DNA from: a virus
Taxonomy: Duplodnaviria; Heunggongvirae; Uroviricota; Caudoviricetes
IMG/VR virus record: IMGVR_UViG_3300046656_000613
Span: 30,167-94,166 of that record
Direction: 5' to 3' (one strand)
Length of the DNA stretch: 64,000 nt
The notes below the pieces were generated by a model. That model was not told the origin of the DNA. It saw only the letters and a program-made list of their open reading frames with translations, and did no database searches. A program made the translations under genes and the position numbers. Below are positions 19,150 to 55,700 of this stretch, one piece after another; the stretch's first letter is position 1, and every line of letters starts with the position of its first letter.

Positions 19150-19241
19150 TGGCGGATAGGGCAGGATTCGAACCTGCGGGCCACGCTTTCGCGGACCAAC
19201 GATTTAGCAAACCGCCGCAATCGGCCTCTCTGCCACCTATC
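19150..19241 (-). tRNA. tRNA-Ser (GCT), type II
   Basis: Acceptor GGATAGG/CCTATCC, anticodon loop TTGCTAA, long variable arm, T-loop TTCGAAT, CCA encoded. Confidence 0.7.
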
Positions 19242-19311
19242 CAGGCTTCCCGATGGAATCCTGTCCTTAGACTCGCATCCCAACCTTATCGCACATATTC
19301 CACCCTGGCAA

Positions 19312-19406
19312 TGGCGGAGGAGGTAGGATTTGAACCCACGGGGCGCACTCTCGTGTCCCGACGGTTTTCAAGACCGCTGCCTTAAGCCAGACTCAGCCAC
19401 TCCTCC
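19312..19406 (-). tRNA. tRNA-Ser (TGA), type II
   Basis: Acceptor GGAGGAG with complementary CTCCTCC; a one-base anchor conflict forces a G-U at the 7:66 pair, possibly hiding an off-by-one in the gene or in the ORF track; anticodon loop CTTGAAA; long variable arm. Confidence 0.7.
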
Positions 19407-19630
19407 AACTCAAACAGGGCGCTGGCGACGGGGCGTTACCCCGTTGGCTCGATTGACTTGTGCACGTCGTGCAAGCGCGCCAGCATTAACTCGATACGGG
19501 TCTAGAGGACATGGGGATTGTACCTCCAGTTGCGATTCTTCGCGTTTGCGCCTCTTCGCCGGTTCCCTAAACCGAACCCGCTCTGGCCGATCACTTCCAT
19601 CGACCGGGGCCGGTCTTTCAGGCCCGTGTT

Positions 19631-19706
19631 TGGTAGCGGGAGTCGGATTTGAACCGACGACCTCCAGTTTATGAGACTGGCGAGCACTCCGCTGCTCTAT
19701 CCCGCA
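19631..19706 (-). tRNA. tRNA-Met (CAT), U1:U72 mismatch (initiator-like or elongator unresolved)
   Basis: Anticodon loop CTCATAA; perfect anticodon stem CCAGT/ACTGG; T-loop TTCAAAT. Confidence 0.7.
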
Positions 19707-19712
19707 ATAATT

Positions 19713-19789
19713 TGGTGCCACCGGCACGGTTTTGAACCTGCGACCTGCCGCTTACAAGGCGGCTGCTCTACCATCTGAGCTACGGCGGC
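19713..19789 (-). tRNA. tRNA-Thr (TGT)
   Basis: Acceptor GCCGCCG; anticodon stem GCCGC/GCGGC with loop CTTGTAA; T-stem has a 1-nt bulge. Confidence 0.7.
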
Positions 19790-19795
19790 GAAACT

Positions 19796-19869
19796 GGTTC
19801 TCCCTCAAGGATTCGAACCTCAACCTTTGCGTCCAGAGCGCAACGTCACTACCGTTAGACGAAGGGAGA
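19796..19869 (-). tRNA. tRNA-Gln (CTG)
   Basis: Anticodon loop CTCTGGA; D-arm similar to enterobacterial tRNA-Gln; T-loop TTCGAAT. Confidence 0.65.
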
Positions 19870-19872
19870 CCT

Positions 19873-19947
19873 TGGTCCTGAAGGCCAGAATTGAACTGGC
19901 GTTTCGCGGTCCACAGCCGCGCGTCCTAGCCACTGAACGACATCAGG
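19873..19947 (-). tRNA. tRNA-His (GTG) with no encoded G-1 and A73 discriminator
   Basis: Anticodon stem CGCGG/CCGCG with loop CTGTGGA; base before position 1 is C, not G. Confidence 0.65.
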
Positions 19948-19949
19948 GT

Positions 19950-20024
19950 TGGTCTGCGCGGCCTGGGTCGAACAGGCGGTCTCCTGATCCCAAATCAGGC
20001 GGATTACCTCTTTCCTACGCGCAG
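19950..20024 (-). tRNA. tRNA-Pro (TGG)
   Basis: C1:G72 acceptor CTGCGCG/CGCGCAG; anticodon stem CCTGA/TCAGG with loop TTTGGGA. Confidence 0.75.
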
Positions 20025-28689: not shown

Positions 28690-29080
28690 CGAAAGTCTTA
28701 GACTGGTCTTTAGGCTAAAGCAGTGACGTGCTGGTTCGAGTCCAGCCCCCGGCACCAACCTATGCCGGGGTGGCGAAATGGTAGACGCAGCGGTTCCCAG
28801 GATCGTGTCACTTCAGATTTAGACTATTCCAACCAGACTGAGCAGATGCCGTGCCGGACCTATCGACCGGCTCCACAATGAAACGATAGACAGGAGTTCG
28901 AATCTCCTCCGGCTCGCCAAATCCTTATGAGCCGGTAGTCTAGTTGGTATGACGATCGTTATAAGCTTAAGTGGAGTCTAAACTGCCGAGGTCTGGAGTG
29001 AGCGGTTTAGGTAGCTCAATGGGTAGAGCAACACCCTTGTAAGGTGTCGGTAGCAGGTTCAAATCCTGCCCTATATCAAA
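28690..29080 (+). other. cluster of chimeric or permuted tRNA-like segments (three units) ending in a tRNA-Thr(TGT)-like gene with no CCA (29007..29078)
   Basis: Perfect T-arms GCTGGTTCGAGTCCAGC and AGGAGTTCGAATCTCCT; D-arms TGGCGAAATGGTAGACGC and TAGTCTAGTTGGTATGAC; each 3' acceptor strand pairs with the 5' acceptor of the next unit rather than its own. Confidence 0.5.
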
Positions 29081-44777: not shown

Positions 44778-45389
44778 TTAGGCTGGGCTGGGACGCGCCA
44801 GCCCGTCGAGCAGACCACGAACAACTTGTTGCCACCATGAGCCGCCCGCTACGGCGCTGACCGCGGCGACAGGCTTGGATGGCGCGGGAGCCGGCGCCGT
44901 GAGAAGCTGGGCGACACCGCGCATGAATAGCGCAGCCTCATCCTTGCGCCGGGACAGCAGCCCGGTGAGCACCCGGCCGCCGCCGATTTTGTAGCGGCAG
45001 AACGCCTCGGTGCAGCCGCTCCACTCGCGCGCATTGATGCGGCGCGCCAGGGTGGATTTGGCGAAGGCGCCGGTGCCGATATTATAGGCCAGCGAGATGC
45101 AGGCGGCGCGCATCCAGGGATGCATGGGCACCTTGATCGCGCGATCGACGCAATCGGCATAGGTCTGAAGTTGGCGCAGCAGGAGCTGCCGGCCCACCTC
45201 CTTGGTGATCGCGTCGTCGGAGAGCTTCACCTTGCGCCCGTCGGTCCAGTATGTCGTGCCGAATCCGATGGTCGGCACCTTCGCCGGGCACAGATACGGC
45301 TTCGCCCGGCCGTCGGGAAGGGCCTTGTGCCAGCCCTCCCATTTTTCGCACAGGGCGACACCTTCGGTCGGGGTTGCCGCGCCAGCCAT
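44778..45389 (-). CDS. phage lysozyme (GH24 endolysin)
   Basis: CEKWEGWHKALPDGRAKPYLCPAKVPTIGFGTT is a lambda R / T4 E-type catalytic motif. Confidence 0.8.
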   Translation of the reverse strand: MAGAATPTEGVALCEKWEGWHKALPDGRAKPYLCPAKVPTIGFGTTYWTDGRKVKLSDDAITKEVGRQLLLRQLQTYADCVDRAIKVPMHPWMRAACISLAYNIGTGAFAKSTLARRINAREWSGCTEAFCRYKIGGGRVLTGLLSRRKDEAALFMRGVAQLLTAPAPAPSKPVAAVSAVAGGSWWQQVVRGLLDGLARPSPA

Positions 45390-45877
45390 TACGCTACCGC
45401 CATCTTCTTCGAGCTGGCCACCGCGCGGGCGCCGAACATGAAGCCGATCACCGCCTGGACGGCCTCGGAGAACAGCGCGATCAGCGAGGTGCCGAAGGCG
45501 TCGTTATGCACGAGGCCGAAGCTGTAGCCGCACAGGCCGACGGCGAACATGAACACGAAGATCAGCGCCGTCATCGGGCGGATCAGCGCGTTGAAGCCGT
45601 CGATCCAGGCGATGCCGGTGTGATAAGAACCCTGGACGGTGATTGCCGTGATAAGCTGCTCCTTGGCCGCGGAAACCTCGGCGCGGAAGGAGTCCTCGCG
45701 GCTCTCCTCCAGCTTGGCCGACACTTCCATTTTGGCGCGCTCCAGGGCGAGCTGATGGTTGAGGGTGGTGAATTCGATTTCGCGCTTATGCGCGCGGCTT
45801 TCCTTGAACTCCTTGAGGAGATCCGGGGCAAGGCCCGACAGGATGCCCGTCACTGCGCTAACCAGTGCCGTAATCAT
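45389..45877 (-). CDS. holin-like membrane protein
   Basis: Two C-terminal TM helices; stop-start ATGA overlap with the lysozyme gene. Confidence 0.45.
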   Translation of the reverse strand: MITALVSAVTGILSGLAPDLLKEFKESRAHKREIEFTTLNHQLALERAKMEVSAKLEESREDSFRAEVSAAKEQLITAITVQGSYHTGIAWIDGFNALIRPMTALIFVFMFAVGLCGYSFGLVHNDAFGTSLIALFSEAVQAVIGFMFGARAVASSKKMAVA

Positions 45878-45954: not shown

Positions 45955-46029
45955 GCTGGGGTAGCTCAGTGGTAGAGCGTCGCGTTGAAGGCGCGAGCGT
46001 CGGTGGTTCAACCCCATCCCCCAGCACCA
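45955..46029 (+). tRNA. tRNA-Phe (GAA)
   Basis: Perfect acceptor GCTGGGG/CCCCAGC; anticodon stem TCGCG/CGCGA with loop TTGAAGG; CCA encoded. Confidence 0.85.
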
Positions 46030-46031
46030 AT

Positions 46032-46106
46032 TGGCATGAAGCACAGCGGTTGTGCATCTGGCTGTTAACCAGGGGGCCGCAGGTTCGAATCCTGCCTTGC
46101 CAGCCA
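46032..46106 (+). tRNA. tRNA-Asn (GTT)
   Basis: Anticodon stem TCTGG/CCAGG with loop CTGTTAA; T-loop TTCGAAT; one U:U in the acceptor. Confidence 0.7.
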
Positions 46107-46111
46107 TATTC

Positions 46112-46185
46112 GGGGATATAGCTCAGTGGCAGAGCATTGCTCTTGCAAAGCAACGACCGGGGTTCGATTCCCCGTTTCTCCACCA
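46112..46185 (+). tRNA. tRNA-Ala (TGC)
   Basis: G3:U70 wobble present; anticodon loop CTTGCAA. Confidence 0.75.
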
Positions 46186-46190
46186 AATTC

Positions 46191-46264
46191 GGGAGTGTAG
46201 CTTAGTGGTAAAGCGGCGGTCTCCAAAACCGCTGGCCGCGGTTCGATTCCGCGCTCTCCCGCCA
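46191..46264 (+). tRNA. tRNA-Trp (CCA)
   Basis: Anticodon stem GCGGT/ACCGC with loop CTCCAAA. Confidence 0.7.
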
Positions 46265-46265
46265 T

Positions 46266-46340
46266 GGTCCCTTCGTCTAAAGGTCAGGATTGCGCACTTT
46301 CACTGCGCCGGTGTCGGGTTCGAGTCCCACAGGGATCACC
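46266..46340 (+). tRNA. tRNA-Glu (TTC)-like, weak T-stem
   Basis: Resembles enterobacterial tRNA-Glu (GTCCCTTCGTCTA...); anticodon loop CTTTCAC; T-stem only 3 bp. Confidence 0.5.
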
Positions 46341-46448
46341 AAAGTTAGCTGTGTCGTGGTCCGCGAAAGCCTGGACGGGCACTGGCGGAGAACGGCAAGC
46401 GGTTAGCAGCCACGAGGCTGCGCAAGCAAGCTGTTCCCGCCCCGGATT

Positions 46449-46522
46449 GCGAATGTAGCTTAATGGTAGAGCAGGGCGTTGCCAACGCTCAGACGCGAGT
46501 TCGATTCTCGCCCTTCGCTCCA
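46449..46522 (+). tRNA. tRNA-Gly (GCC)
   Basis: Anticodon loop TTGCCAA; T-arm GCGAGTTCGATTCTCGC. Confidence 0.7.
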
Positions 46523-46528
46523 GTTTCC

Positions 46529-46603
46529 GCGAACATAGCTCAGCGGCAGAGCGCCACGCTTCCAACGTGGGCGTCGGGAGTTCGATCCTCCCTGTTCGCT
46601 CCA
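46529..46603 (+). tRNA. tRNA-Gly (TCC)
   Basis: Perfect acceptor GCGAACA/TGTTCGC; anticodon stem CACGC/GCGTG with loop TTCCAAC. Confidence 0.8.
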
Positions 46604-46610
46604 AACTTAT

Positions 46611-46713
46611 GCGGGAATAGTGTAAAGCGCACGCCGGTTAACCGGAAGTACGGTATAGATGGTCAATCCGCGGTAGCGGCCATCGTCGGGGCGGTTCCCC
46701 GTTTCCCGCTCCA
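46611..46713 (+). tRNA. atypical 103-nt tRNA-like element (perfect acceptor GCGGGAA/TTCCCGC plus CCA)
   Basis: Acceptor pairing and CCA present but the body is too long and the T-arm non-canonical; possible intron-containing gene or pseudo-tRNA. Confidence 0.35.
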
Positions 46714-46718
46714 GTCAT

Positions 46719-46796
46719 GCCCCCGTAGCTCAGTGGAACAAGAGCGCTGGCCTACGAAGCCGGATGTCGCAGGTTCGAATCCTGCCGGGGGCTCCA
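46719..46796 (+). tRNA. tRNA-Arg (ACG)
   Basis: Perfect acceptor GCCCCCG/CGGGGGC; anticodon loop CTACGAA. Confidence 0.8.
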
Positions 46797-46854
46797 ATAT
46801 CGCACCAGGATCTACTTGTCGTCAACAAGTATTGGTGCTATATATTACTACAGT

Positions 46855-46931
46855 GCCCCTCTGGGCAAATGGTAAAGTCGCTGGACCCAGACTCCAGAGT
46901 TATCCCGGTTCGAGTCCGGGGAGGGGCACCA
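46855..46931 (+). tRNA. tRNA with anticodon CAG (Leu-type) but a short variable arm
   Basis: Perfect acceptor GCCCCTC/GAGGGGC; anticodon stem CTGGA/TCCAG with loop CCCAGAC (C33 unusual); class-I length. Confidence 0.45.
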
Positions 46932-46936
46932 CTCTC

Positions 46937-47013
46937 GCGCGGGTGGGCAAACGGTAAAGTCGCTGCCTTGAGGTGGCAGAGCACTGCGGGTTCGAATCCC
47001 GCTCCGCGCACCA
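46937..47013 (+). tRNA. tRNA with anticodon GAG (Leu-type) but a short variable arm
   Basis: Anticodon stem CTGCC/GGCAG with loop TTGAGGT (U33, G37); T-arm GCGGGTTCGAATCCCGC; 77 nt. Confidence 0.5.
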
Positions 47014-47017
47014 ATAC

Positions 47018-47094
47018 GGACCCGTCGCCAAGTGGTTTACGGCACCTGACTCTTAATCAGGCATGCGCTGGTTCGAATCCAGCCGGGTCTACCA
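47018..47094 (+). tRNA. tRNA-Lys (CTT)
   Basis: Anticodon stem CCTGA/TCAGG with loop CTCTTAA. Confidence 0.8.
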
Positions 47095-47101
47095 TTCTTA
47101 C

Positions 47102-47190
47102 GGGCTCTTTTCCCTTCGGCGGGCTGTAAACCCGTTGGCTATGAAATAGAGGGGTCGGTGCCGAGCAGTTCAAATCTGCGGGAGCCCACC
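47102..47190 (+). tRNA. tRNA-Tyr (GTA)-like, type II length, aberrant D-arm
   Basis: Anticodon loop CTGTAAA identical to bacterial tRNA-Tyr; acceptor GGGCTCT/GGAGCCC pairs; 89 nt; D-arm cannot be folded confidently. Confidence 0.4.
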
Positions 47191-47219
47191 ATTCACGGAA
47201 ACCAAAGGCGAGAACTAAC

Positions 47220-48161
47220 ATGAGACAAATCTCTGACGGCGGCCCGAGCGGACAAGGCAGCAGCCTGATGCTCGGCGGCTGGCTGACCATCGGCGCGGTG
47301 GTGGTCAGCATCCTGATCGCATTCTGGAGCTATTACACCGTGGACGCCGGCCATGTGGCGGTGATCAAGCGCTTCGGCGCGGTGCAAGAGGGCTATTACG
47401 GCCCCGGCCTGCATTTCAAGAACCCGCTGCTCGACAGCGTGGTCCACGTCAACACTCAGCTCAGCAGCGTCGAGGCCAAGGCCGGCGCCGCCTCCAAGGA
47501 CATGCAGGTTGTCACCACCGAGGTGAGCGTGCCTTATTACCTGCAAGACCCGCAGGTGCCGACGATGATCAATGCGCTCGGCTCGCGCGAGGTGCTGGCC
47601 AAGAGCGTCCTGGCGACCGCCATTCAGGAGTCCGTCAAGAGCGCCACGGCCGGCTATACGGCCGAGGAGCTGCTCACCCGGCGCAATGAGGTGAAAGCCA
47701 AGATCGTCTCCGGCATCGTCGCCTACGTCAACGACACCCTGCGCGCCAAGAAAATCGAAGGGCTGGTCGGCATCGCCAATGTCGGCATCACCGACTTCGA
47801 CTTCTCCCCCGACTTCAACAAGGCCATCGAACAGAAGGTCCGCATGCAGCAGGACGCTCTGCGCGCCGAGATCGAGAAGACCAAGCGCATCACCGAGGCC
47901 GAGGCGAAATTTGCCGAAGCGAAGCTGAGTGCCGACGGCGAAGCCTACAAGACCAAGACCGAGGCGGAAGCCCGGATCTTCGCGATCGAGGGCGAGGGCA
48001 AGGCGATCCGCGAGAACCCCGGCATCGTGCCGCTGCGTATCGCCGAACGCTGGGATGGCACTCTGCCGAAATATAACAGCTCGACACTGCCCATGTTCAT
48101 GATGCAGGCTGAGCCCGAGACCGCCACACCGACGTCGCCGACGCGCGCGGCCACCCGGTAG
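47220..48161 (+). CDS. SPFH/band-7 (prohibitin/HflK-like) membrane protein
   Basis: N-terminal TM then GHVAVIKRFGAV...GLHFKNPLLDSVVHVNTQ... SPFH core and a coiled-coil C-terminus; embedded in the tRNA array. Confidence 0.8.
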   Translation: MRQISDGGPSGQGSSLMLGGWLTIGAVVVSILIAFWSYYTVDAGHVAVIKRFGAVQEGYYGPGLHFKNPLLDSVVHVNTQLSSVEAKAGAASKDMQVVTTEVSVPYYLQDPQVPTMINALGSREVLAKSVLATAIQESVKSATAGYTAEELLTRRNEVKAKIVSGIVAYVNDTLRAKKIEGLVGIANVGITDFDFSPDFNKAIEQKVRMQQDALRAEIEKTKRITEAEAKFAEAKLSADGEAYKTKTEAEARIFAIEGEGKAIRENPGIVPLRIAERWDGTLPKYNSSTLPMFMMQAEPETATPTSPTRAATR

Positions 48162-48168
48162 CAAGACT

Positions 48169-48243
48169 GGTTCTGTAGCTCAGCGGTAGAGCGTGCGCCA
48201 TATAAGCGCTTGGTCCCAGGTTCGATCCCTGGCAGAACTACCA
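48169..48243 (+). tRNA. tRNA with anticodon loop CATATAA (Ile- or Met-like, unresolved)
   Basis: Acceptor GGTTCTG/CAGAACT; T-arm CCAGGTTCGATCCCTGG; coordinates adjusted +1 to match the ORF track. Confidence 0.5.
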
Positions 48244-48246
48244 GAC

Positions 48247-48322
48247 GGTCCCGTAGCTCAATGGACAGAGCGCCGGCTTCCGAAGCCGAAGGTTGCAGGT
48301 TCGAGTCCTGCCGGGATCGCCA
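48247..48322 (+). tRNA. tRNA-Arg (CCG)
   Basis: Anticodon loop TTCCGAA; T-arm GCAGGTTCGAGTCCTGC. Confidence 0.7.
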
Positions 48323-48339
48323 TCAATCAGGAGAGACGC

Positions 48340-48549
48340 ATGACCACGCAGCGCGTGCGGGGCAAGACGGAACGCAGTTGGACATGGCGCGTCTTCAAGC
48401 GCTATGCGCTTCTGGACAATTCCAGGATCTTCTTTGCGATTGTTGCCCGGTTTCCGCCCCGGCGCGATCTGTGGTGCTGGCTCCATCGTTGGCCGGAGGG
48501 CATCGACATCAGGGTGTGGCCGGTCGATTTATTTATTAAGCGCGCCTAG
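48340..48549 (+). CDS. small hypothetical protein (69 aa) inside the tRNA array
   Basis: ATG after SD CAGGAGAG; Trp/Arg-rich. Confidence 0.3.
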   Translation: MTTQRVRGKTERSWTWRVFKRYALLDNSRIFFAIVARFPPRRDLWCWLHRWPEGIDIRVWPVDLFIKRA

Positions 48550-48615
48550 CCCAACGGGAGAGGCAACACCGTTAAGCCGTGTAAAGTGTCAGTTCGAATC
48601 TGACGGCGCGTACCA
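48540..48615 (+). tRNA. tRNA with anticodon TAA (Leu-type) but class-I length
   Basis: Acceptor GCGCGCC/GGCGCGT; anticodon loop GTTAAGC; T-arm GTCAGTTCGAATCTGAC; 76 nt. Confidence 0.45.
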
Positions 48616-48619
48616 AATA

Positions 48620-48696
48620 AGGTGTGGGAGCCAGACGGCAGCGGCGCTTGGTTGCAACCCAAGAGATAGCCGGTTCAATTCCGGCCCACACTTCCA
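48620..48696 (+). tRNA. tRNA-Cys (GCA)
   Basis: Perfect anticodon stem CTTGG/CCAAG with loop TTGCAAC. Confidence 0.75.
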
Positions 48697-48788
48697 AAAT
48701 CGCAGTTAGAGGGTCGCGCCCTGTCGGGTTTCTGGGCGGTTCTGGCAAGCAATCCTCTATGCAAAGCTGGCTCGGGGCGCTGCGATAC

Positions 48789-48825
48789 GCTCTTGACACG
48801 TTTCGCTATGCAATATATGGTTCTG
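48789..48825 (+). promoter_or_regulatory. sigma70-like promoter (CTTGACA, 16-17 nt, TATATG) inside the tRNA array
   Basis: Good -35/-10 with canonical spacing, upstream of tRNA-Asp. Confidence 0.4.
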
Positions 48826-48948
48826 TTGTCCCCGGCTCGCATGGGCGCGGTGCACCGGATTTGCGTAGCCCTAGCCTTGTGCCTACAATATGGCCGTAAA
48901 CATGATAAGCCGGCTGAGGAAGCATAGTAAACCGGGGGCACCCCTTAT

Positions 48949-49023
48949 GGTCTGTTAGCTCAGTGGTAGAGCGCCGGCTTGTCACGTCGTAGGTCGCGGG
49001 TTCAATTCCCGCACAGATCGCCA
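48949..49023 (+). tRNA. tRNA-Asp (GTC)
   Basis: Anticodon loop TTGTCAC; T-arm GCGGGTTCAATTCCCGC. Confidence 0.8.
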
Positions 49024-49025
49024 AT

Positions 49026-49102
49026 GGTCCCGTAGCTCAGTTGGTAGAGCGCCCGTTTTACATGCGGAAGGTCGCAGGTTCAAATCCGTGCCGGGACTAC
49101 CA
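49026..49102 (+). tRNA. tRNA-Val (TAC), bulged T-stem
   Basis: Anticodon loop TTTACAT; acceptor GGTCCCG/CGGGACT. Confidence 0.6.
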
Positions 49103-49107
49103 TTTTC

Positions 49108-49182
49108 GCCCTTGTAGCTCATCGGCAGAGCACGTCATTGGTGATGACGGGGCAGCAGGTTCAATTCCTGCCTGGGGCACCA
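49108..49182 (+). tRNA. tRNA-Thr (GGT)
   Basis: Perfect anticodon stem CGTCA/TGACG with loop TTGGTGA. Confidence 0.7.
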
Positions 49183-49198
49183 TTATAGGAGTGGAGTT

Positions 49199-49471
49199 AT
49201 GGCAGCGGCAGCGGTCACATGTAGAGCATTTCTTGAAGCCAGACCGGGCATCAGCGTCATTGATCTCGCAACCGAGGCTGTTGCCGATCACATCGAGAAG
49301 AACGGCTGCGCCTTTGAGGACAACGCCCCGGCTCGCGCCGTTGAGCTGCTCGGAATCGACCCACACAGCGTGGCGACGGCGCTTCCGCCCGAGATTTTGA
49401 AGCGCCTTGAAGATGCGCTGGAAGACATGGAGACATATTGTCCCCACCGGACGCTTGGCCAAGTGGCTTAA
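49199..49471 (+). CDS. small hypothetical protein (90 aa) whose 3' end overlaps tRNA-Lys
   Basis: SD AGGAGTGGAG before the ATG; overlaps the next tRNA by about 23 nt. Confidence 0.3.
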   Translation: MAAAAVTCRAFLEARPGISVIDLATEAVADHIEKNGCAFEDNAPARAVELLGIDPHSVATALPPEILKRLEDALEDMETYCPHRTLGQVA

Positions 49472-49525
49472 GGCACCCGACTTTTAATCGGAAGATCCTG
49501 GGTTCGAATCCCAGAGCGTCCACCA
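49449..49525 (+). tRNA. tRNA-Lys (TTT)
   Basis: Perfect acceptor GGACGCT/AGCGTCC; anticodon loop CTTTTAA. Confidence 0.75.
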
Positions 49526-49526
49526 T

Positions 49527-49600
49527 GGTCTCGTAGCTCAACGGTAGAGCATCCGACCGATAATCGGCCGACCGTGGTTCAACTCCACGCGAGACTACCA
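49527..49600 (+). tRNA. tRNA-Ile (GAT)
   Basis: Anticodon loop CCGATAA; T-arm CGTGGTTCAACTCCACG. Confidence 0.65.
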
Positions 49601-49602
49601 TC

Positions 49603-49679
49603 GGCCCCGTAGTTCAATGGAATAGAACGCCCGTCTTCTAAGCGGGATGTTGCGGGTTCGACTCCTGCCGGGGCCACCA
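49603..49679 (+). tRNA. tRNA-Arg (TCT)
   Basis: Perfect acceptor GGCCCCG/CGGGGCC; anticodon loop CTTCTAA. Confidence 0.8.
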
Positions 49680-49768: not shown

Positions 49769-52700
49769 CTATTCCCCGATCACCGGACCATACAGATCGC
49801 TGACGTCGGCATCCTTGCGCTGGCTATTGATGCGCTCGCGCACCTTGCCCCAGACCTTGGCGAGGTGCTTGCCGTCCTGGACCTTCTCCTTCTTCATCCG
49901 GCGCAGCATCTCATCATAGACTTCCGGGGCGCCGGCTTTGAGCACCTTCAGCCGGGCGTCCACATCCATCAGCTTCTGCTGGCCCCAGCCGTCGATCCCC
50001 ATGATCTGGAGGGCGTTCTGGGCCATGCCCTTGCGAATGTGCGCAATCTCATTGCGGGCAAAGCGCATCTGCTCGCGGTCCATCTTCTTGCGCGCCTCGC
50101 CCTTCTCGTCCTTGTCCTGGATCAGCTCGCCGGTGACGATCTCCTTCATGATCGCGTTGGTGATCTTGACGGATTCGCTGGCGTTGATCATCGGATGCAG
50201 ATTGCGATATTTGCCCTTGGTGCGGCCCTTGAAGTCATTCTCCAGCACCGCGAAGGCGCGCTGATCCGGGTTAATCTGGCCGAGGAATTCCGAGGCCCGA
50301 ATGCTGTTCTCACCGCCCGAGTCGATCATCTTTTTGTAGGTGTTCGAGGCCGAGTGGAATGAGCGCGCGTCCTCGCTGACCGTATCCCAGAACCACTTGT
50401 TCAGCCCCTCGCCGTCGGTCATCATATTGTAGAACTTCGACAGCGAGTTCGAGGTTTTGCCTGCATTGTAAGTGAACCGGCGCGCCACCGGGTATTCTGC
50501 GATCGACGGCATCGGCCCCTCGCCAAGCGCCGCATCCAGGCCAGACGCTGCGTCCTGGCCCACCGAGGTGGTCAGATTGCGGATCAGGAAGTCCGCATAA
50601 TACGGCGACATGTTGAGCGCTTCGCCGATCTGCTTGGCCGCCCATGAGGTGTACGGGCCGAACTGCTGCTGACGCTCAACCTCCTCGGGGCCTTTCTCCC
50701 AGATCGGCACGATGTCGTTGCCGGAATACATATCCTTTCCTGACGCGAAACCATAAACCAGATCCAGCGCCGAGATCGAATGCGGCGGCAGCAGCGTGGT
50801 GAAGAAGTCGCTGACCATGCCGGCCGCCGCGCGCGGATCGTGATCGACCAGATAGTCCCAGCTCCGCTCGACCGCATTGGCGAACCATGCGATTTCGAAG
50901 GGCTTGGGAATGCGCATCATCCAATCGGTCTTCTCATCCTCGCCGGCCAGGAAGACGCGCATGTCTTTGGGCAGCAGGTACAGCACGCCATTGAGCGACA
51001 GCCGCCAATGGGTGGCGCGCACGCTGTCCGGCACCTCCTTCATGTCGTCATCGTCGGCACCCAGCATGCAGAACAGCAGCGACAGGCCGCCGAGCACGAC
51101 GGTGGAGATCATCCACGCCTTGCCGGCCTGCCCGAGCGCGCGCTGCTCATTGACCGACAGCGGCAGGCCACGGCTGTGCCGATCCCAGATCTGGATCAGG
51201 TTGCCGTAGTCATTGGCGCCGGTCATGGTCTTGGCATATTTGTAGACACCCTGGAGCGCGGCATTGAAGAACGGGATGACGCGCCGGAAGGCTTCGGTTT
51301 TTGAGCCGTGCTGGCTGAAGTCCATCACGTCATGAGCGTAGTGCCCGGCCTCGATCGCCGCCTCGAACTCGGTCATGCCGTCGGCCTGGGCAGATAGCAT
51401 GGCGTTGCGGAAGATGCCAACGCGGGTGGCGGTCTCAGAGAATTCGCCAACCTGGAACACCAGCTTGACCAGATCCTTGATGCTACGCGGCACCCGCACA
51501 TTGAAGCCGCGCAAGCGCAGCCCCTCGATGTCGCGCTGGATCGACTGATCCGTGAGCGAGGCGTGGCCGGCGCCACCCATCATGCCGGCGTAGCGGTTAT
51601 ACAGATGCAGATAGGGTCCGCCGCGGACGATCTCGCGCATGCCGCGCGCCTGGGTGAGAAATGGCCGAGCATAGGGCGAGTTCACCCAGGACGCGATCGA
51701 GTCGGTGATGATGTTGCGGATCATGAAGCCGAACGAGAAGGTCACGCCGGTGCGCACCACGCTGGTGGTGATGGCCATGGCGTCCATAAGCTGACCCATA
51801 TTGCGCTGGCCGACGGCAGTCAGACCCTCGAACATCATCTGCCCGAGCGTGCCATCGGGGAGCTGCGCCGGGATCGGCTTGCCGTTCTCGAAGAACCAGA
51901 CGATCTTCTCGCCCTTCTCATTGGCCTGCGCCTGGGTGAACATGGTCGTGACCACGTTCTGGCCGATCTGGGTCTCGACATTGGCGAGCATGATCGCAGT
52001 GTCCTGCGCCGTCATGCCGGCCGCGCGCGCCGCCTGCCGGAGCTGCTCGCGAATCCGCACTTCGACCGCCCGTGCCTCGGTGGGCGGCAGCCGCTCGAAG
52101 ATCTCGTTGCCCGCCTGCCCGGCCTGCCGGGCGATGCGATCCATAGCGCGCAGCGTGTCATTGATCGCGGCGCGCAGCCGGATCTCGAACATGGTCTGCA
52201 CTGTGGACTGGATCGGGTTGATGATATCGCGCATCGAGCCTTCGAGCTGGCGATAGACATCATACTTATTGATCTTGTCGCGCCCACGTCCCGGCCGCTT
52301 CGAGGTGGCATCCGTGCCATCCACCGTCTCGCGATCGGACATGTTGCGCTGGAACGGACAGTAATCCCGGTCCTGCTGGTACTCATTGCGCTCATCGAGG
52401 GTGATCAGACCCTTCTCGTACATCAGCTCGATGATGTCTTTGTTGAAGCGATAATACAGCTCGGCCGCCTGCCGGAACTGCGGGTTCTGTTGCTCATGGC
52501 GCAGCAGCCGATTGAGGTGCTCATACAGCGCCTCGGCGGTCGGTGGATTGGCCAGATCCGAGACGGTGTTGGTCGGCAGCCGCTGGAGCAGGAATGCCAT
52601 CTGCGGGTTGGCGGCCACGAACTGCTGGATCTGCACACGGAACTGCGGCCGATAGCGGACATAGAGCAGGATCGCGCGCCGGCTGATCAGATAGTCGCCG

Positions 52701-55700
52701 AACGCGCGCGCCCGCGCCTCATTCCAACTGCGCCGATTGGTGTTGCCGAAGGCTGTCGCCAGCACCTGATGCATCGATACGCCGCCGACGCCATTGGGCC
52801 GCGAGCGCAGCGCAACCCCCTCCTTGAGATCCTGCATCGCCCATGCCTGGGTGTGCGAGGTCATCTTCAGCAGCTTGTTGGGATTGTCGGCCGCCGCCAG
52901 GGTGACGCGCTGGCCGGTGACGCGATTGATTTCTTCGAGCAGCGCCCGCGTCGCCATCCACCAGCCATGGCGCTTGTCGAAGACGTTCATGACGAAGCCA
53001 TGATGCAGATCATACAGCCGATCGGCCATGGTCGAGACGAAGCCGTCGCGCTCGGCGTCTTGCAGGAAGCGCCGGGCGGCATTCGGGGTGCGGGTGAGCA
53101 TGGTCTGCTGCGCGGCGCCGCGATCGAGCGGGTCGCCAAGCAGGAAATTGTCGTACTCATCCTGGATGTCCTGCATCGCCCAGAACAGCCGCGGGTCTTC
53201 CGCCTCGACCAGATTCTCAAAGGTGCGATAGAAATTCGGCGCCTGCTGGCGCGCCGCGGTCTCGTTGGTCAGATAGCGGCGGAAGAATTCGGCAAAGCCC
53301 TCCGACAGATTGGTGTTGCCCTGGCCGGCGACCACGCCGGCCAGCGGCGACAGCTCGTGCGAGAACGCCACCATGGCCGCGCGCAGTCGGGCGCCCAGCG
53401 TGCGCTCCAGATGATGGCCCGCCTCATGGGCGAAGGTGTCGAAGTCGATCTGCACGCGCAGGCGAGCGCGACCATTATACTGGCCGTTGACTTGCCCGCC
53501 GCCCGCCGCGGTCGCCTGCCGCTGGAGCGCCGGGTCGATGCGCCCGGTCGCCACCGACAACCCGGCCGCGCGGCGGAAGTCCGCCATCAGCTCAGAGAGC
53601 GCCTTGAGAGGCCGCTGGCGGGGCAGGAAGCGCTGCACGACGTTCTGGGCCATGCTGCGCGGCGCTGCCGTCTGCCGTGCCCTGGTGGCGCCTGGGGCCG
53701 TGGCGATGCCGCGCGCGTCGGCGAGCACGCCCGCGCGGATCATCGCCTGGGTGTTCACCTTCTCAGTGCGGCCATAGATCTCCTCATAACGACGCTTCAG
53801 CTCGCCCTGATCGACCTTCTGGAAAATATCCTCCCATGTCTGGGAGCCATTGCCCTTGATGCCGTTGACCAAGCGGGCCATGAAGTCGCTCAGTCGCTTG
53901 AAGGCAATCCGCACGATCCCCTTGGGGGCATACTGGTCGGCACGATAGCGGCCGAACATCTCCATGATCGATTCCTTGAGGATCAGATCCTGGAGTTGTC
54001 GCGGCCCCATGGTTTTGCCATAGCGCTTGGTGTAGGCGCGGGCGACGCCGGTCTTGCGAACCCAGCCCTCTTTCTGCGCGGCGGCCTGGAGTGCCGACCA
54101 TTCGGCTGCGGTGATCATGTCGTGCGCCAGGAAGAACTCCAGCGCCTCATGCCGCACCGTGGTCTTGGTGATCTCGGCCATGGACTGGCCGGTGGCGCGG
54201 GCCTTCTCCTCGATGGCCTTGGCGCCGATCGAGATCATCTCCGCGCGTGGGTCGGTCTGGCCGAGTGCGCGAACAATGGCGTTGTCGATATTTTCATTGC
54301 TGTCGTCGAGGGAGAACAGCTCGTCGAGCACTTCCTGCTGCTCGCCGGCCTCCATCGGCTCACCGTTTTTATGGGTGATCCTGACGGAGCTGTCGTCGAA
54401 CACCACAATGTTGCGCGTGCCGTCGGCCTGCTTCACATCGGCGGCCTGGACTTCCAGGATCTGGTCGAGCGTAGCCTGGGCGTCGCGGAGCCGTTCGGCG
54501 GTCAGCCGCTGATGGTTCGGCGGGACGAATGGCGAGAAGTCTTCCGACTCCTTGTCGCCGCGGCGCATCTCGAAATTGAGCTTTTCGACATGCTCGCGGT
54601 ATTTCTGCTCGGTCTCGTCGAGCGAGCCGTCAAGCTTCTGCTGCGCCCAGCCCCAGAGCTGGTCGGGGACAGGCTTGCCGTTCAGGCTGATGGTGCGCGA
54701 CGACGCATCGAGATAACGCAGGCCGGGGACGCCGGCCGCGTGAAGCGCTGCCGAAGCCTCTTGATCTGTGTAGAAACGGCGCCTCAGCTCATCGATAACA
54801 TGGCGTCCGTCGCGATAATCGACGGCATCAAACCCAAGCGCTTTCAGTTTTTCTTGGACGCCCGCAGGCTGCTTGCTCAGCGGCTTATCCCAATCCAGGA
54901 GCTGCTCAGGCTCAAGATCGATCTCGACCTGATAGAGCATGCCCTTGTCGATCTCGGGCTGTGGGAAGCGAATCTGCTTGCCGTACAGCCCCTTGAGCCA
55001 CTCGATGGCTTCCTTTGCCGCCTTGCGCTCATCCAGGCTCAGAGTTTCGCCGAAGGAATCCATCCCGGCGTCCAAATCAACCTGGATAATTGCGGTATAT
55101 TCCTGGATCATCCCCAACGGGATGACGCCGCCCGCCTTGGGAAGATCATCCTTAAGCTGACTGCCCAGCCAATGGATCATATCATTGCCGGTGATGTCCG
55201 TTTCCTGATCATCGATAAACATGATGTCAGGCACAACGGTCTGCTGCCGAGCGGCGCCTGATAGCGCCTCGCGATAATAGTCGGCGATGCCCTTATTCTC
55301 AGCAAAATACAGGCCATACCCATAAGCCTGCGCGCCCTCGCCGGTGCCGATCGCATCCATGCTGAAGCGGTCAAAGCGGTGCGGCGTGCCGTGGAACGCC
55401 GTCAGCGAGAACATATTCGGGGTCTCGGCGCGGGCCTCAACGGGCATCTTCGACCACAGCTTGATCAGCTCACCGCGTTCCTTGCGCGCGTTGGTCAGAT
55501 CGAATGCCTTGTTCTCATCGTCCGGTCGCGCCGCGATTGCTCGCAGCTCTTTGCCAATAAAATCAAGGTTGTCCTTGATCCGTCGCGGCGAAATATAATA
55601 CCCCTCAAACTCGGACCACTGATGCCATTTCACGCTCTCGGGTGAGCGCTTTTTCCACATGGCATAGCCTTCTTCCGACAGAATGCCGGAAGGCGACATC

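What the first reader, a model, noticed from the sequence alone, without database searches (positions are those of the whole stretch)
45955..49679. Large tRNA array (about 23 genes) with an embedded SPFH gene and non-canonical members
Twenty-three tRNA or tRNA-like genes lie within 3.7 kb on one strand, which is typical of large virulent phages or mobile tRNA arrays rather than alphaproteobacterial chromosomes. Three members read as Leu anticodons (CAG, GAG, TAA) yet have class-I length with short variable arms. One element is 103 nt with a perfect acceptor stem. A Tyr-like member has an aberrant D-arm, and one has an unresolved CATATAA loop. The array is interrupted by an SPFH/band-7 membrane-protein gene and by two small ORFs, one of which overlaps tRNA-Lys.
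Basis: seen in the sequence. Interest (0 to 1): 0.6.

Follow-up and report, generated by a model that had tools for sequence, protein, structure and literature searches.

The report
Phage tRNA array with remodelled tRNAs
A phage carries a near-complete set of its own tRNA genes, including short leucine tRNAs and a tyrosine tRNA with a rebuilt core that standard tRNA finders miss, and both odd types recur in unrelated phages.

Summary
ARAGORN and Rfam both find 21 canonical tRNA genes at 45955-49679 (+), all ending in CCA. An SPFH/Band-7 gene and two small ORFs interrupt the array.

The three Leu tRNAs really are short (type I). They belong to phage-borne families found in viral contigs of 32-63% GC and in cultured phages such as Myrna and DSS3P8.

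The "Tyr-like" element (47102-47191) is not a pseudogene. It belongs to a conserved family of nine distinct sequences, including five cultured Pseudomonas phages where it is unannotated. It has an invariant CUGUAAA anticodon loop, A73, an 8-bp acceptor stem and a 4-bp T stem, and no D hairpin. A 6-bp helix between the 5' D strand and the variable region replaces the D arm and crosses a 3-bp variable stem. In the alignment, 98.7% of cells pair and the pairs covary.

C33 in tRNA-Ile(GAU) recurs across phage lineages. The 103-nt element has no support.

The array is an accessory module, present or absent between the lysis genes and a giant polyvalent-protein gene in a family of about 90-kb phages. 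Its likely role is translation that does not depend on host tRNAs, possibly with resistance to tRNA-cleaving defences. That role is inferred, not shown.

The parts
45955..46341 (+). tRNA-Phe(GAA) 45955-46029, Asn(GUU) 46032-46106, Ala(UGC) 46112-46185, Trp(CCA) 46191-46264, Glu(UUC) 46266-46341
   Evidence: ARAGORN; Rfam 44.7-69.9 bits. The same order begins the arrays of relatives L018, L029 and L053.
46342..46448 (+). 107-nt spacer that folds stably; specific to this window
   Evidence: MFE -48.9 kcal/mol, z = -2.56. No homologue in relatives. Function unknown.
46449..46603 (+). tRNA-Gly(GCC) 46449-46522 and tRNA-Gly(UCC) 46529-46603
46611..46713 (+). 103-nt element with a 7-bp terminal helix followed by U-CCA; no evidence that it is a functional tRNA
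   Evidence: Not found by ARAGORN or Rfam. Fold of 46613-46715, two bases off the element, gives z = -0.33. Absent from L029 and L053, where Gly and Arg(ACG) abut. No BLAST match in any locus.
46719..46796 (+). tRNA-Arg(ACG)
46855..46931 (+). Type-I (short variable loop) tRNA-Leu(CAG), subtype A, with anticodon loop CCCAGAC (C33, A37)
   Evidence: ARAGORN; Rfam 51.8 bits. Member of a 15-sequence family with an invariant D arm. Identical to its L029 orthologue at 60/60 positions outside the anticodon arm, but only 6/10 in the stem and 0/4 in the loop flanks.
46937..47013 (+). Type-I tRNA-Leu(GAG), subtype A, loop UUGAGGU
47018..47094 (+). tRNA-Lys(CUU); lies immediately upstream of the Tyr-like gene in the window and L053, and upstream of it with a 56-aa ORF between in L029
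47102..47191 (+). Non-canonical tRNA-Tyr(GUA)-like gene. Numbering is from base 47102 = 1. Acceptor stem of 8 bp, 2-nt linker, a 6-bp helix between 11-16 and 48-53, anticodon arm 18-34 with loop CUGUAAA, a 3-bp variable stem 36-38 with 59-61 that crosses the 6-bp helix, a 4-bp T stem, A73 and CCA
   Evidence: Covariance model R1: 94.2 bits here, against <=30.5 bits for ordinary tRNAs. Nine-sequence alignment: 98.7% of cells paired, 21 of 26 pairs with changes on both sides, 38-55% paired when partners are slid.
47220..48161 (+). SPFH/Band-7 (prohibitin/HflC-like) membrane protein gene embedded in the array
   Evidence: Pfam Band_7 4.9e-26; phrog_200. In relatives L018, L019, L020 and L054 the orthologue follows NinB instead. 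L029 has a different Band_7 gene of 426 aa in the same slot, with no BLASTP similarity (E = 0.69).
48169..48322 (+). tRNA-Ile(UAU) 48169-48243 with loop CAUAUAA (A33), and tRNA-Arg(CCG) 48247-48322
   Evidence: Rfam 59.1 and 67.6 bits. A33 is not shared by the L029 or L007 tRNA(UAU) genes, which are 91 and 86 nt long.
48340..48549 (+). 69-aa ORF; its stop overlaps the start of tRNA-Leu(UAA)
   Evidence: Coordinates converted from the public gene call on the identical contig. No PHROG match. L029 has a different-looking 69-aa ORF in the same slot, judged by eye from the translation.
48540..48696 (+). Type-I tRNA-Leu(UAA), subtype B (D arm UAGCCCAAC-GGGAGAGGCA) 48540-48615, and tRNA-Cys(GCA) 48621-48696
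   Evidence: Rfam 41.8 and 47.5 bits. Subtype B recurs in L006, L009, L010, L029, L031 and L053.
48870..48942 (+). Conserved 73-nt non-coding stretch upstream of tRNA-Asp, downstream of a promoter-like site at 48793-48821
   Evidence: 90% identical to L025 and 80% to L029. Promoter-like TTGACA-17-TATGGT. Function unknown.
48949..49182 (+). tRNA-Asp(GUC) 48949-49023, Val(UAC) 49026-49102, Thr(GGU) 49108-49182
49199..49471 (+). 90-aa ORF overlapping tRNA-Lys(UUU) by 23 nt
   Evidence: ORF listed. Coordinates converted from the public gene call. No PHROG match.
49449..49679 (+). tRNA-Lys(UUU) 49449-49525, tRNA-Ile(GAU) 49527-49600 with loop CCGAUAA (C33), tRNA-Arg(UCU) 49603-49679
   Evidence: The C33 in Ile(GAU) is shared by L029, L053, L006 and L008.
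44778..45877 (-). Upstream flank: endolysin 44778-45389 and a 162-aa protein 45389-45877 that I call holin-like from its position only. This protein served as the anchor for finding relatives.
   Evidence: Pfam Phage_lysozyme 3.2e-32; phrog_6637, function unknown; homologues.
49769..59668 (-). Downstream flank: 3299-aa polyvalent protein (LPD38, Ros/MucR, weak ART-PolyVal)
   Evidence: In relatives without an array this gene ends 80-420 nt from the 162-aa gene, or in L028 from a 228-aa ORF that precedes it.
19150..20024 (-). Second array: tRNA-Ser(GCU), Ser(UGA) (both long-arm class II), Met(CAU), Thr(UGU), Gln(CUG), His(GUG, A73), Pro(UGG)
29004..29078 (+). Solitary tRNA-Thr(UGU) without an encoded CCA

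Best explanation
The region is an accessory tRNA-gene module of an uncultured phage of about 90 kb. It sits in a variable slot between the lysis genes and the giant polyvalent-protein gene.

Together with a second array and one solitary tRNA, it gives the phage about 30 tRNA genes covering all 20 amino acids and nearly all codons. The phage can therefore keep translating when host tRNAs are depleted or cleaved during infection.

The atypical members are functional, phage-specific tRNA designs rather than decay products:
1. The Leu tRNAs have lost the long variable arm. They keep A73 and, in subtype A, a Leu-type D arm. I infer that host LeuRS charges them.
2. The Tyr tRNA has a 12-bp acceptor/T branch split 8/4 and no D hairpin. 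A 6-bp helix between the 5' D strand and the variable region extends the anticodon helix, and a 3-bp variable stem crosses it as a pseudoknot. The canonical Tyr anticodon loop, A73 and CCA are retained. I infer that TyrRS charges it and that it decodes UAY.
3. Several tRNAs carry C33 instead of the near-universal U33.

I infer that these alterations make the phage tRNAs poor substrates for host tRNA-targeting nucleases while keeping them usable in translation.

Shown: the genes, their conservation, the covariation-supported structures, and presence or absence of the module among relatives.
Inferred: expression, aminoacylation, decoding and nuclease resistance.
For: Genes:
- 21 tRNAs found by two methods.

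Module behaviour:
- Relatives were found through the 162-aa neighbour.
- L029 has the same gene order, including a Band_7 gene. L053 has a related array without SPFH. L018 has the array start.
- L026, L027 and L028 have no tRNA in this slot. L030 and L054 have only two, and L025 one.

Decoding set:
- The tRNAs match both the commonest codons (CTG, GGC, ATC, AAG) and the rarest (ATA 2%, TTA 1%, AGA 2%). This fits independence from host tRNAs better than compensation for rare codons.

Type-I Leu:
- 15 subtype-A sequences come from phage contigs of 32-63% GC plus mycobacteriophage Myrna and roseophage DSS3P8.
- They share an invariant D arm. 14 of 20 pairs covary. All carry Leu anticodons (CAG, GAG, UAG, CAA), and the discriminator reads A in the aligned sequences.

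Tyr-like:
- Nine distinct sequences: window, L029, L053, L007, L031, L047, and Pseudomonas phages Lyrsu03, Rembedalsseter and SCYZ1.
- 98.7% of cells pair. The 6-bp helix pairs in 100% of cells, with four pair types at one position. The 3-bp stem pairs in 100% of cells, with two pairs covarying. The eighth acceptor pair forms in 9 of 9.
- Model scores are 70-105 bits, against <=30.5 bits for ordinary tRNAs.
- It is the only Tyr decoder in a set that covers the other 19 amino acids.

C33:
- C33 in Ile(GAU) is shared by five phage lineages, and C33 recurs in Val, Pro and Leu(GAG) tRNAs of related arrays.

Context:
- Phage tRNAs are proposed or shown to counter tRNA-targeting defences (PMC10264068, PMC11555353).
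- The window also carries an Acb2/Tad1-like anti-defence gene and an RNA-repair-associated HAD domain.
Against: - There are no expression, aminoacylation or cleavage data.
- The host and its defence systems are unknown.
- E. coli LeuRS does not charge the type-I tRNA-Leu of Streptomyces coelicolor (PMC6614811), so charging of type-I Leu by an ordinary LeuRS cannot be assumed.
- The Tyr-like alignment was built by hand to fit the structure and has only nine sequences.
- The Tyr-like gene lies next to a canonical tRNA-Tyr in L047. It is the only tRNA, or one of two, in 45-47 kb Pseudomonas phages. This fits a specialised non-decoding role such as a decoy equally well.
- The C33/A37 of Leu(CAG) and the A33 of Ile(UAU) in this window are not shared by orthologues, so they could be mildly deleterious drift.
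- Faster divergence of anticodon stems than of the rest (66-70% against 81-86% identity) is expected for any tRNA and does not discriminate between hypotheses.
Confidence: 0.6

Rival explanations
1. Codon-usage compensation: the array supplies tRNAs for codons that the phage uses more than its host does, and the structural oddities have no functional meaning.
For: The set includes tRNAs for A/U-ending codons expected to be rare in a high-GC host: UAA, UAU, UCU, UUU, UAC, UGC, UCC and UUC anticodons.
Against: The phage itself hardly uses those rare codons (ATA 2%, TTA 1%, AGA 2%, GTA 3%). The set also covers the most abundant codons, so it is nearly complete rather than complementary. Close relatives lack the array entirely. 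The odd features are conserved across distant phages. The host is unknown, so no direct comparison was possible.
Confidence: 0.15
2. The Tyr-like RNA is not a decoder. It is a tRNA mimic, for example a decoy or inhibitor for a nuclease, modification enzyme or synthetase that targets tRNA-Tyr, or a regulatory RNA.
For: It lies next to a canonical tRNA-Tyr in L047. In Rembedalsseter it is the only tRNA-like gene in the 888-nt locus examined, and in the complete Lyrsu03 genome it occurs with only tRNA-Pro, just upstream of terS in each. It has no D loop to make the usual elbow contacts. An invariant anticodon loop would also be needed by a bait.
Against: It keeps every feature needed for charging and for the ribosome: a 12-bp acceptor/T branch, A73, CCA, a canonical T loop and the canonical Tyr loop CUGUAAA. 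In the window it fills the only gap in a set covering the other 19 amino acids. (8/4) allo-tRNAs are translationally active in E. coli (PMC5389517).
Confidence: 0.25
3. The atypical members are decaying pseudogenes or chance tRNA-like sequences.
For: This is true or likely for the 103-nt element, which has no detection, no conservation and no excess stability. It is possible for the window-specific A33 of Ile(UAU) and the C33/A37 of Leu(CAG), which orthologues do not share.
Against: Refuted for the Tyr-like gene: all differences between window and L029 lie in stems and preserve pairing, and covariation holds across nine sequences. Refuted for type-I Leu: 14 of 20 pairs covary and only Leu anticodons occur. 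Refuted for C33 in Ile(GAU), which is conserved in five lineages.
Confidence: 0.05
4. The short 'Leu' tRNAs are charged with another amino acid, so the phage partly recodes Leu codons.
For: LeuRS does not read the anticodon, and E. coli LeuRS rejects a natural type-I tRNA-Leu (PMC6614811). The subtype-B D arm looks like a generic class-I D arm. Precedents exist for mis-assigned tRNAs: allo-tRNAs insert Ser at Leu codons (PMC5389517).
Against: Leu codons are about 8% of phage codons, and in this genome all Leu tRNAs are type I, so recoding would rewrite the whole proteome. Subtype-A members carry only Leu anticodons and a Leu-like D arm with A73. The same families occur beside ordinary type-II Leu tRNAs in low-GC phages.
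Confidence: 0.05

Closest known systems
Phage tRNA-rich regions (T5 tRNA-rich region; cluster C1 mycobacteriophages with about 33 tRNAs)
   Same: Dense same-strand arrays of 20-35 tRNA genes with small ORFs interspersed. They have been proposed or shown to sustain translation and to counter tRNA-targeting defences (PMC10264068, PMC11555353).
   Different: This one sits in a roughly 90-kb phage with a lambdoid-style early region, in a slot that is empty in close relatives. No near-identical sequence exists in 50,697 GenBank phage records.
(8/4) tRNAs and allo-tRNAs (Mukai et al. 2017, PMC5389517), including the (8/4) tRNA-Ser and tRNA-His found in tRNA clusters of alphaproteobacterial phages
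   Same: A 12-bp acceptor/T branch split 8/4 (the eighth pair forms in 9 of 9). A long variable region. A 6-bp helix at the D position, the same length as the D stem of tRNA-Sec (own knowledge); that paper describes the allo-tRNA D stem-loop as like that of tRNA-Sec, with a long stem and a tetraloop. Found in phage tRNA clusters.
   Different: The anticodon is GUA with A73, which is Tyr-type rather than Ser-type G73/U73. There is no D hairpin: the 3' strand of the 6-bp helix comes from the variable region and crosses the variable stem. A term search of that paper for Tyr found tRNA-Tyr only in its reference list. L008 carries what looks like a plain (8/4) Tyr gene with a D hairpin and tetraloop, a possible intermediate; this was judged by eye and not tested.
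Type-I tRNA-Leu(CAA) of Streptomyces coelicolor (Fan et al. 2019, PMC6614811) and animal mitochondrial tRNA-Leu
   Same: Leu anticodon on a tRNA with a short variable loop. That paper shows a bacterial LeuRS can charge such a tRNA.
   Different: The phage families have their own conserved D arm. Its 20-nt signature gave only two real matches in one genome per 185,579 species, both in tRNA arrays. They cover all Leu anticodon types and replace every type-II Leu tRNA in the high-GC phages. Charging is untested.
D-arm-lacking mitochondrial tRNAs such as metazoan mt-tRNA-Ser(AGY) (own knowledge)
   Same: No D hairpin. The anticodon helix is extended and the connectors are reorganised, while acceptor/T stacking is kept.
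   Different: The context is bacterial and phage, not mitochondrial. The T loop is canonical and the molecule is full-length at 88-91 nt. A covariation-supported helix with the variable region replaces the D stem, rather than a short replacement loop.
Phage tRNAs with anticodon-loop changes proposed to escape anticodon nucleases (van den Berg et al. 2023, PMC10264068); T5 tRNA-Tyr against retron-Eco7 PtuAB (PMC11555353)
   Same: Phage copies differ from the cellular norm in or near the anticodon loop (C33, A33). A phage tRNA-Tyr can be the single decisive counter-defence gene.
   Different: Here the changes extend to the whole architecture: the variable arm is lost in Leu and the D arm is rebuilt in Tyr. 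No nuclease, host or phenotype is known. A term search of the eLife paper found no mention of position 33.

Membership tests
Canonical tRNA (Rfam RF00005) | Score at or above the gathering threshold of 29 bits, with a cloverleaf found by ARAGORN | tested here: met
   Met for 21 genes at 45955-49679 (41.8-69.9 bits). Not met for the Tyr-like element or the 103-nt element, which give no RF00005 hit even at E<=10.
Phage tRNA gene array | Many tRNA genes clustered on one strand within a phage genome | tested here: met
   22 genes in 3.7 kb. Phage hallmark genes lie on both sides. Homologous arrays occur in related phage contigs.
Bacterial class-II tRNA-Leu | Long variable arm (stem-loop, total length about 85 nt) | tested here: not met
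   The variable loops are 5-6 nt and the genes are 73-74 nt without CCA.
Bacterial class-II tRNA-Leu | A73 discriminator and a Leu anticodon | tested here: met
   A73 in all three window genes, with anticodons CAG, GAG and UAA. Only Leu anticodons occur in 15 of 15 subtype-A relatives.
Type-I tRNA-Leu (S. coelicolor tRNA-Leu(CAA) type) | Leucylation by the resident LeuRS | not testable with these tools
   Needs an aminoacylation assay. PMC6614811 shows that the outcome depends on the enzyme.
(8/4) tRNAs / allo-tRNAs (Mukai 2017) | 8-bp acceptor stem plus 4-bp T stem | tested here: met
   The column 8:82 pair forms in 9 of 9 sequences (UG 5, CG 3, AU 1). The alternative fifth T-stem pair was unpaired in 5 of 7.
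(8/4) tRNAs / allo-tRNAs (Mukai 2017) | D stem-loop with a long stem and a tetraloop, as in tRNA-Sec | tested here: not met
   Only 9 nt lie between the 8-bp acceptor stem and the anticodon stem. The 6-bp helix is formed with positions 48-53 of the variable region.
(8/4) tRNAs / allo-tRNAs (Mukai 2017) | Ser identity (G73 or U73 plus a long variable arm) | tested here: not met
   A73 is invariant.
Bacterial tRNA-Tyr | GUA anticodon in a CUGUAAA-type loop, and A73 | tested here: met
   Invariant in nine sequences.
Bacterial tRNA-Tyr | Canonical D arm with G18-G19, and a long variable stem-loop | tested here: not met
   There is no D hairpin. The variable stem has 3 bp, and part of its loop forms the 6-bp helix.
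Bacterial tRNA-Tyr | Tyrosylation by TyrRS and decoding of UAY | not testable with these tools
   Needs biochemistry. Cultured carriers exist: Lyrsu01-03, SCYZ1 and Rembedalsseter.
SPFH / Band-7 | Pfam PF01145 domain above the curated cut-off | tested here: met
   92.3 bits against a cut-off of 23.6.

The most novel reading that the evidence does not exclude
Phages have evolved re-engineered versions of the long-arm bacterial tRNAs: Leu without its variable arm, and Tyr with a new fold in which the variable region replaces the D arm by a pseudoknot. These work in translation but escape host immune nucleases that recognise class-II tRNA architecture or the U33 anticodon loop. The Tyr form would be the first natural tRNA outside organelles that decodes without a D hairpin, and in small Pseudomonas phages it would be a single-gene counter-defence.
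Probability: 0.3. Interest if true: 0.85.

Novelty: new variant of a known kind. Interest (0 to 1): 0.68.

Why it matters
- Standard annotation misses a conserved tRNA-Tyr-like gene in cultured phages, so phage tRNA inventories, and arguments built on which isotypes phages lack, are incomplete.
- If the gene is functional, it shows that a bacterial translation system accepts a tRNA with no D hairpin and a pseudoknotted core. This widens the known limits of tRNA architecture and offers a scaffold for engineered orthogonal tRNAs.
- LeuRS does not read the long arm, while SerRS requires it (PMC5389517; own knowledge for LeuRS). Leu and Tyr are remodelled here but Ser is not. This pattern gives a concrete, testable hypothesis about which tRNA features host defence nucleases recognise.
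- The cultured Pseudomonas phages (Lyrsu01-03, SCYZ1, Rembedalsseter), Myrna and DSS3P8 make the tests directly feasible.

Tried and rejected
- Megablast of the array against GenBank phages gave no match.
- A search for SPFH relatives in IMG/VR found none.
- blastn of the window's Tyr-like sequence against phages found nothing. Family members were reached only with other members as queries.
- A strict pattern scan of IMG/VR for the Tyr-like family returned only L007 and L047. A first, exact pattern returned nothing.
- A looser pattern returned 22 loci, of which only L007, L031 and L047 were real.
- The metagenome scan with the 162-aa protein gave one locus, L025.
- I rejected the minimum-free-energy fold of the Tyr-like RNA, which destroys the anticodon arm and is no better than shuffles (z = -0.95).
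- I rejected a CUAUGAAAUAG hairpin in the variable region. The Pseudomonas-phage members have UUAAUAA there, which by inspection cannot form it.
- I rejected the 7/5 acceptor/T reading, because the fifth T-stem pair is unpaired in 5 of 7 sequences while 8:82 always pairs.
- I considered and dropped a permuted-gene explanation, because the acceptor termini and CCA are in the normal place.
- No RNA ligase or kinase was found among the ten ORFs scanned around the HAD RNA-repair domain.
- Comparing divergence by tRNA region did not discriminate between hypotheses.
- tRNAscan-SE isotype models were not available.
- Six literature searches found no description of type-I tRNA-Leu in phages, of (8/4) or pseudoknotted phage tRNA-Tyr, or of recurrent C33. 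The library excludes most subscription journals, so prior description cannot be ruled out.

Full report
**1. What is in the sequence**

ARAGORN finds 29 tRNA genes in the window. Of these, 21 lie on the + strand between 45955 and 49679. Rfam's tRNA model finds the same 29 at 41.8-69.9 bits, against a gathering score of 29.

The order of the array is: Phe, Asn, Ala, Trp, Glu, Gly(GCC), Gly(UCC), Arg(ACG), Leu(CAG), Leu(GAG), Lys(CUU), then the SPFH gene, then Ile(UAU), Arg(CCG), Leu(UAA), Cys, Asp, Val, Thr(GGU), Lys(UUU), Ile(GAU), Arg(UCU). All 21 end in an encoded CCA.

A second array at 19150-20024 (-) adds Ser(GCU), Ser(UGA), Met, Thr(UGU), Gln, His and Pro. A solitary Thr(UGU) lies at 29004-29078. 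Among canonically detected genes, only Tyr is missing.

The SPFH gene at 47220-48161 has a clear Band_7 domain. Public gene calls on the identical contig, converted to window coordinates, give two small ORFs: 48340-48549 (69 aa) and 49199-49471 (90 aa). The second overlaps tRNA-Lys(UUU). Neither has a PHROG match.

A motif scan looked for a canonical T loop with a perfect 7-bp acceptor helix anywhere in the window. It found exactly one element not already called: 47102-47191.

**2. What the window is**

It is a phage. It encodes an endolysin, a RecT-like protein, NinB, SSB, Prim-Pol, a cI-type HTH protein, a Bro/ANT antirepressor, a LexA-type DNA-binding protein, a tail protein and an internal virion protein. 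It also encodes a 3299-aa polyvalent protein with LPD38 and Ros/MucR domains.

Nothing near-identical exists among 50,697 GenBank phage records. The identical SPFH protein occurs on JGI and Logan metagenome contigs of up to 94 kb.

Relatives were traced through the 162-aa protein next to the endolysin. They are contigs of 78-92 kb with the same backbone.

In these relatives the interval between the polyvalent gene and the lysis genes varies:
- L029 holds the same array in the same order, including a Band_7 gene.
- L053 holds a related array without SPFH.
- L018 holds the array start; the contig ends there.
- L030 and L054 hold only two tRNAs, and L025 one.
- L026, L027 and L028 hold none.

The array is therefore an accessory module in a variable slot.

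The SPFH gene is also mobile within the family. Its 68-79% identical orthologues follow NinB in L018, L019, L020 and L054. The Band_7 gene in the same array slot of L029 shows no BLASTP similarity to the window's gene (E = 0.69).

**3. The short Leu tRNAs**

All three Leu-anticodon genes have 5-6 nt variable loops and A73.

The D arm of the CAG and GAG genes has the signature UGGGCAAAYGGUAAAGUCGC. A scan for this signature returned nine IMG/VR contigs of 32-63% GC, each with a 75-78 nt tRNA-Leu inside a tRNA array.

The same scan over one genome for each of 185,579 bacterial and archaeal species returned five hits. Only two were tRNAs, and both lay in tRNA arrays on MAG contigs.

blastn against GenBank phages found the same type in several cultured phages. 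I confirmed short tRNA-Leu genes in two of them:
- Mycobacteriophage Myrna, where 76- and 74-nt genes are already annotated tRNA-Leu. The 76-nt gene is the best match to the window's CAG gene, at 83% identity.
- Roseobacter phage DSS3P8.

Erythrobacter phage vB_EliS-L02, phiTE, CR9 and Streptomyces phage Sycamore also matched, but I did not inspect those genes.

Fifteen subtype-A sequences align as a normal cloverleaf. The D arm is invariant, the variable loop is a 6-nt AGUUUU type, and 14 of 20 pairs covary. The anticodons are CAG, GAG, UAG or CAA, which are all Leu.

The UAA gene belongs to a second subtype with D arm UAGCCCAA-GGNAGAGGCA. This subtype recurs in L006, L009, L010, L029, L031 and L053.

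In low-GC phages the short form sits beside ordinary long-arm Leu tRNAs. In the high-GC phages, including this one, every Leu tRNA is short.

Type-I tRNA-Leu is rare in bacteria. The documented case is S. coelicolor tRNA-Leu(CAA), which its own LeuRS charges but E. coli LeuRS does not (PMC6614811). I found no paper that remarks on the phage families.

**4. The Tyr-like gene**

L029 carries the same element at the same place. It has seven differences from the window's copy. All seven lie in helices and preserve pairing, including two double changes.

Further members came from several searches:
- A motif search among fetched loci.
- An IMG/VR pattern scan, which gave L031 and L047.
- blastn with other members as queries, which gave Pseudomonas phages Lyrsu01-03, Rembedalsseter and SCYZ1.
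- Covariance model R1, which gave L053.

R1 scores the members at 70-105 bits and ordinary tRNAs at no more than 30.5 bits.

On the nine-sequence alignment the structure is as follows. Numbering is from base 47102 = 1; the alignment carries padding columns, so its column numbers differ slightly.
- The acceptor stem has 8 bp. The eighth pair forms in 9 of 9 sequences (UG, CG or AU).
- A 2-nt linker follows.
- Positions 11-16 pair with 48-53. All cells pair, and one position shows UA, AU, CG and GC.
- The anticodon arm is 18-34, with the invariant loop CUGUAAA.
- Positions 36-38 pair with 59-61. All cells pair, and two of the three pairs covary.
- The T stem has 4 bp, with a canonical T loop.
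- A73 is invariant. CCA is encoded in eight of the nine.

Overall 98.7% of cells pair, against 38-55% when the partners are slid. No shuffle out of 500 reached the observed values.

The 6-bp and 3-bp helices cross, so the core is a pseudoknot. The loop of a short variable stem supplies the strand that a D hairpin would normally provide.

The linker after that strand contains GG in all nine members. I speculate that it replaces G18-G19 at the elbow.

Two caveats apply. The alignment was built by hand around the structure, and nine sequences is a small sample.

The 8/4 split links the family to the (8/4) tRNAs and allo-tRNAs of Mukai et al. (PMC5389517). They reported (8/4) tRNA-Ser and tRNA-His in tRNA clusters of alphaproteobacterial phages. 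A term search of that paper found no Tyr form.

L008 and L009 carry other GUA genes that ARAGORN also misses. They have a compact D hairpin of a 5-bp stem and a 3-4 nt loop. By eye, L008 looks like a plain (8/4) Tyr and may be an intermediate form.

The distribution is informative:
- In the window family the Tyr-like gene lies downstream of tRNA-Lys(CUU), with a 56-aa ORF between them in L029, and is the only Tyr decoder seen.
- In L047, a 285-kb contig, it sits beside a canonical tRNA-Tyr.
- In the complete 47-kb genome of Lyrsu03 the only other tRNA is Pro.
- In Rembedalsseter it is the only tRNA-like gene in the 888-nt locus fetched around it, just upstream of terS.

None of the GenBank records annotates it.

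**5. Anticodon-loop oddities**

Three window tRNAs lack U33: Leu(CAG) has CCCAGAC, Ile(GAU) has CCGAUAA and Ile(UAU) has CAUAUAA.

The C33 of Ile(GAU) is shared by L029, L053, L006 and L008. C33 recurs in Val(UAC), Pro(UGG), Leu(GAG) and other tRNAs of the related high-GC arrays. It is therefore a selected feature.

The other two are specific to this window. The Leu(CAG) gene is identical to its L029 orthologue at all 60 positions outside the anticodon arm, but differs at 4 of 10 stem positions and at all four loop-flank positions. This points to replacement or fast evolution of that arm. It could equally be drift.

**6. The 103-nt element and other spacers**

It has no canonical T loop or anticodon loop. 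It is not detected by any tool, is no more stable than shuffles, and has no homologue.

The 107-nt spacer at 46342-46448 folds well (z = -2.56) but is also unique to this window.

A 73-nt stretch at 48870-48942 is conserved in L025 and L029. It lies downstream of the best promoter-like site in the region.

**7. How it most likely works**

The set decodes both the most used and the least used codons of the phage. It covers every amino acid, and close relatives can do without it. This fits a module that makes translation independent of the host tRNA pool, a pool that host shut-off or tRNA-cleaving defences can deplete (PMC10264068, PMC11555353).

The remodelled tRNAs follow a pattern. Leu and Tyr are altered, while both Ser tRNAs keep a normal long arm. 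SerRS needs that arm for recognition (PMC5389517).

I therefore propose that the alterations remove features recognised by host nucleases while keeping what the synthetases and the ribosome need. This step is inference. No nuclease, host or phenotype is known here.

The main rival for the Tyr-like RNA is a non-decoding mimic or decoy.

**8. Verdict**

The array as such is an ordinary kind of phage feature in a new phage. Its atypical members are real, conserved and under-described. The Tyr-like family in particular is a new variant of tRNA architecture that annotation pipelines miss, and it can be tested at once in cultured Pseudomonas phages.

Noticed in passing
window 33891-34421 (-): A 176-aa protein with a Pfam Acb2/Tad1 hairpin domain (5.7e-16). 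This family comprises sponges for CBASS/Thoeris signalling nucleotides, so it is a likely anti-defence gene.
   Followed up: partly
window 2106-2675 (-): A 189-aa protein matching 'HAD domain in Swiss Army Knife RNA repair proteins' (5.3e-20). No ligase or kinase was found among the ten ORFs scanned around it.
   Followed up: partly
L029 4772-4862 (-); L007 3581-3666 (-): tRNAs with a UAU (Ile AUA) anticodon that are 91 and 86 nt long, with a long variable region. They recall allo-tRNA(UAU) (PMC5389517) and nematode nev-tRNA-Ile(UAU) (PMC3333845). The window's orthologue is 75 nt with A33.
   Followed up: no
L008 about 10260-10345 (-); L009 about 11034-11119 (-): Other tRNA-Tyr(GUA)-like genes missed by ARAGORN, with a 5-bp D stem and a 3-4 nt loop. 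L008 looks like an (8/4) form by eye and may be an intermediate towards the pseudoknotted form.
   Followed up: partly
L047 1509-1698 (-): On a 285-kb viral contig of 40% GC, a canonical 82-nt tRNA-Tyr and the pseudoknotted Tyr-like gene lie side by side.
   Followed up: partly
window 47220-48161 versus L029 4871-6151 (-): Two Band_7-domain genes with no BLASTP similarity occupy the same slot in homologous arrays, just after the Tyr-like gene. In other relatives the window-type SPFH follows NinB.
   Followed up: partly
window 48870-48942: A 73-nt non-coding stretch, 90% identical in L025 (where it abuts the stop of the polyvalent gene) and 80% in L029. It lies downstream of a TTGACA-17-TATGGT site.
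   Followed up: partly
L025 about 3695-3745 (-): A mini tRNA-like sequence (atggctat...ggttcgattcc...atagccat-t-cca) and a 3' tRNA half, in a relative that keeps only one intact tRNA. These are possibly remnants of a decayed array.
   Followed up: no
window 19873-19947 (-): tRNA-His has A73 and C1-G72. PMC5389517 states that A73 together with the lack of G-1 is characteristic of tRNA-His in a group of alphaproteobacteria. With the Ros/MucR domain, this is a clue to the host.
   Followed up: no
L010 2361-2432 (Myrna MYRNA_86): A 72-nt gene annotated tRNA-Ser is read by ARAGORN as having a CUA (amber) anticodon.
   Followed up: no
window 28851-28919 (+): A weak tRNA-like hit with model R1 (19.2 bits), 85 nt upstream of the solitary tRNA-Thr. 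ARAGORN does not call it.
   Followed up: no
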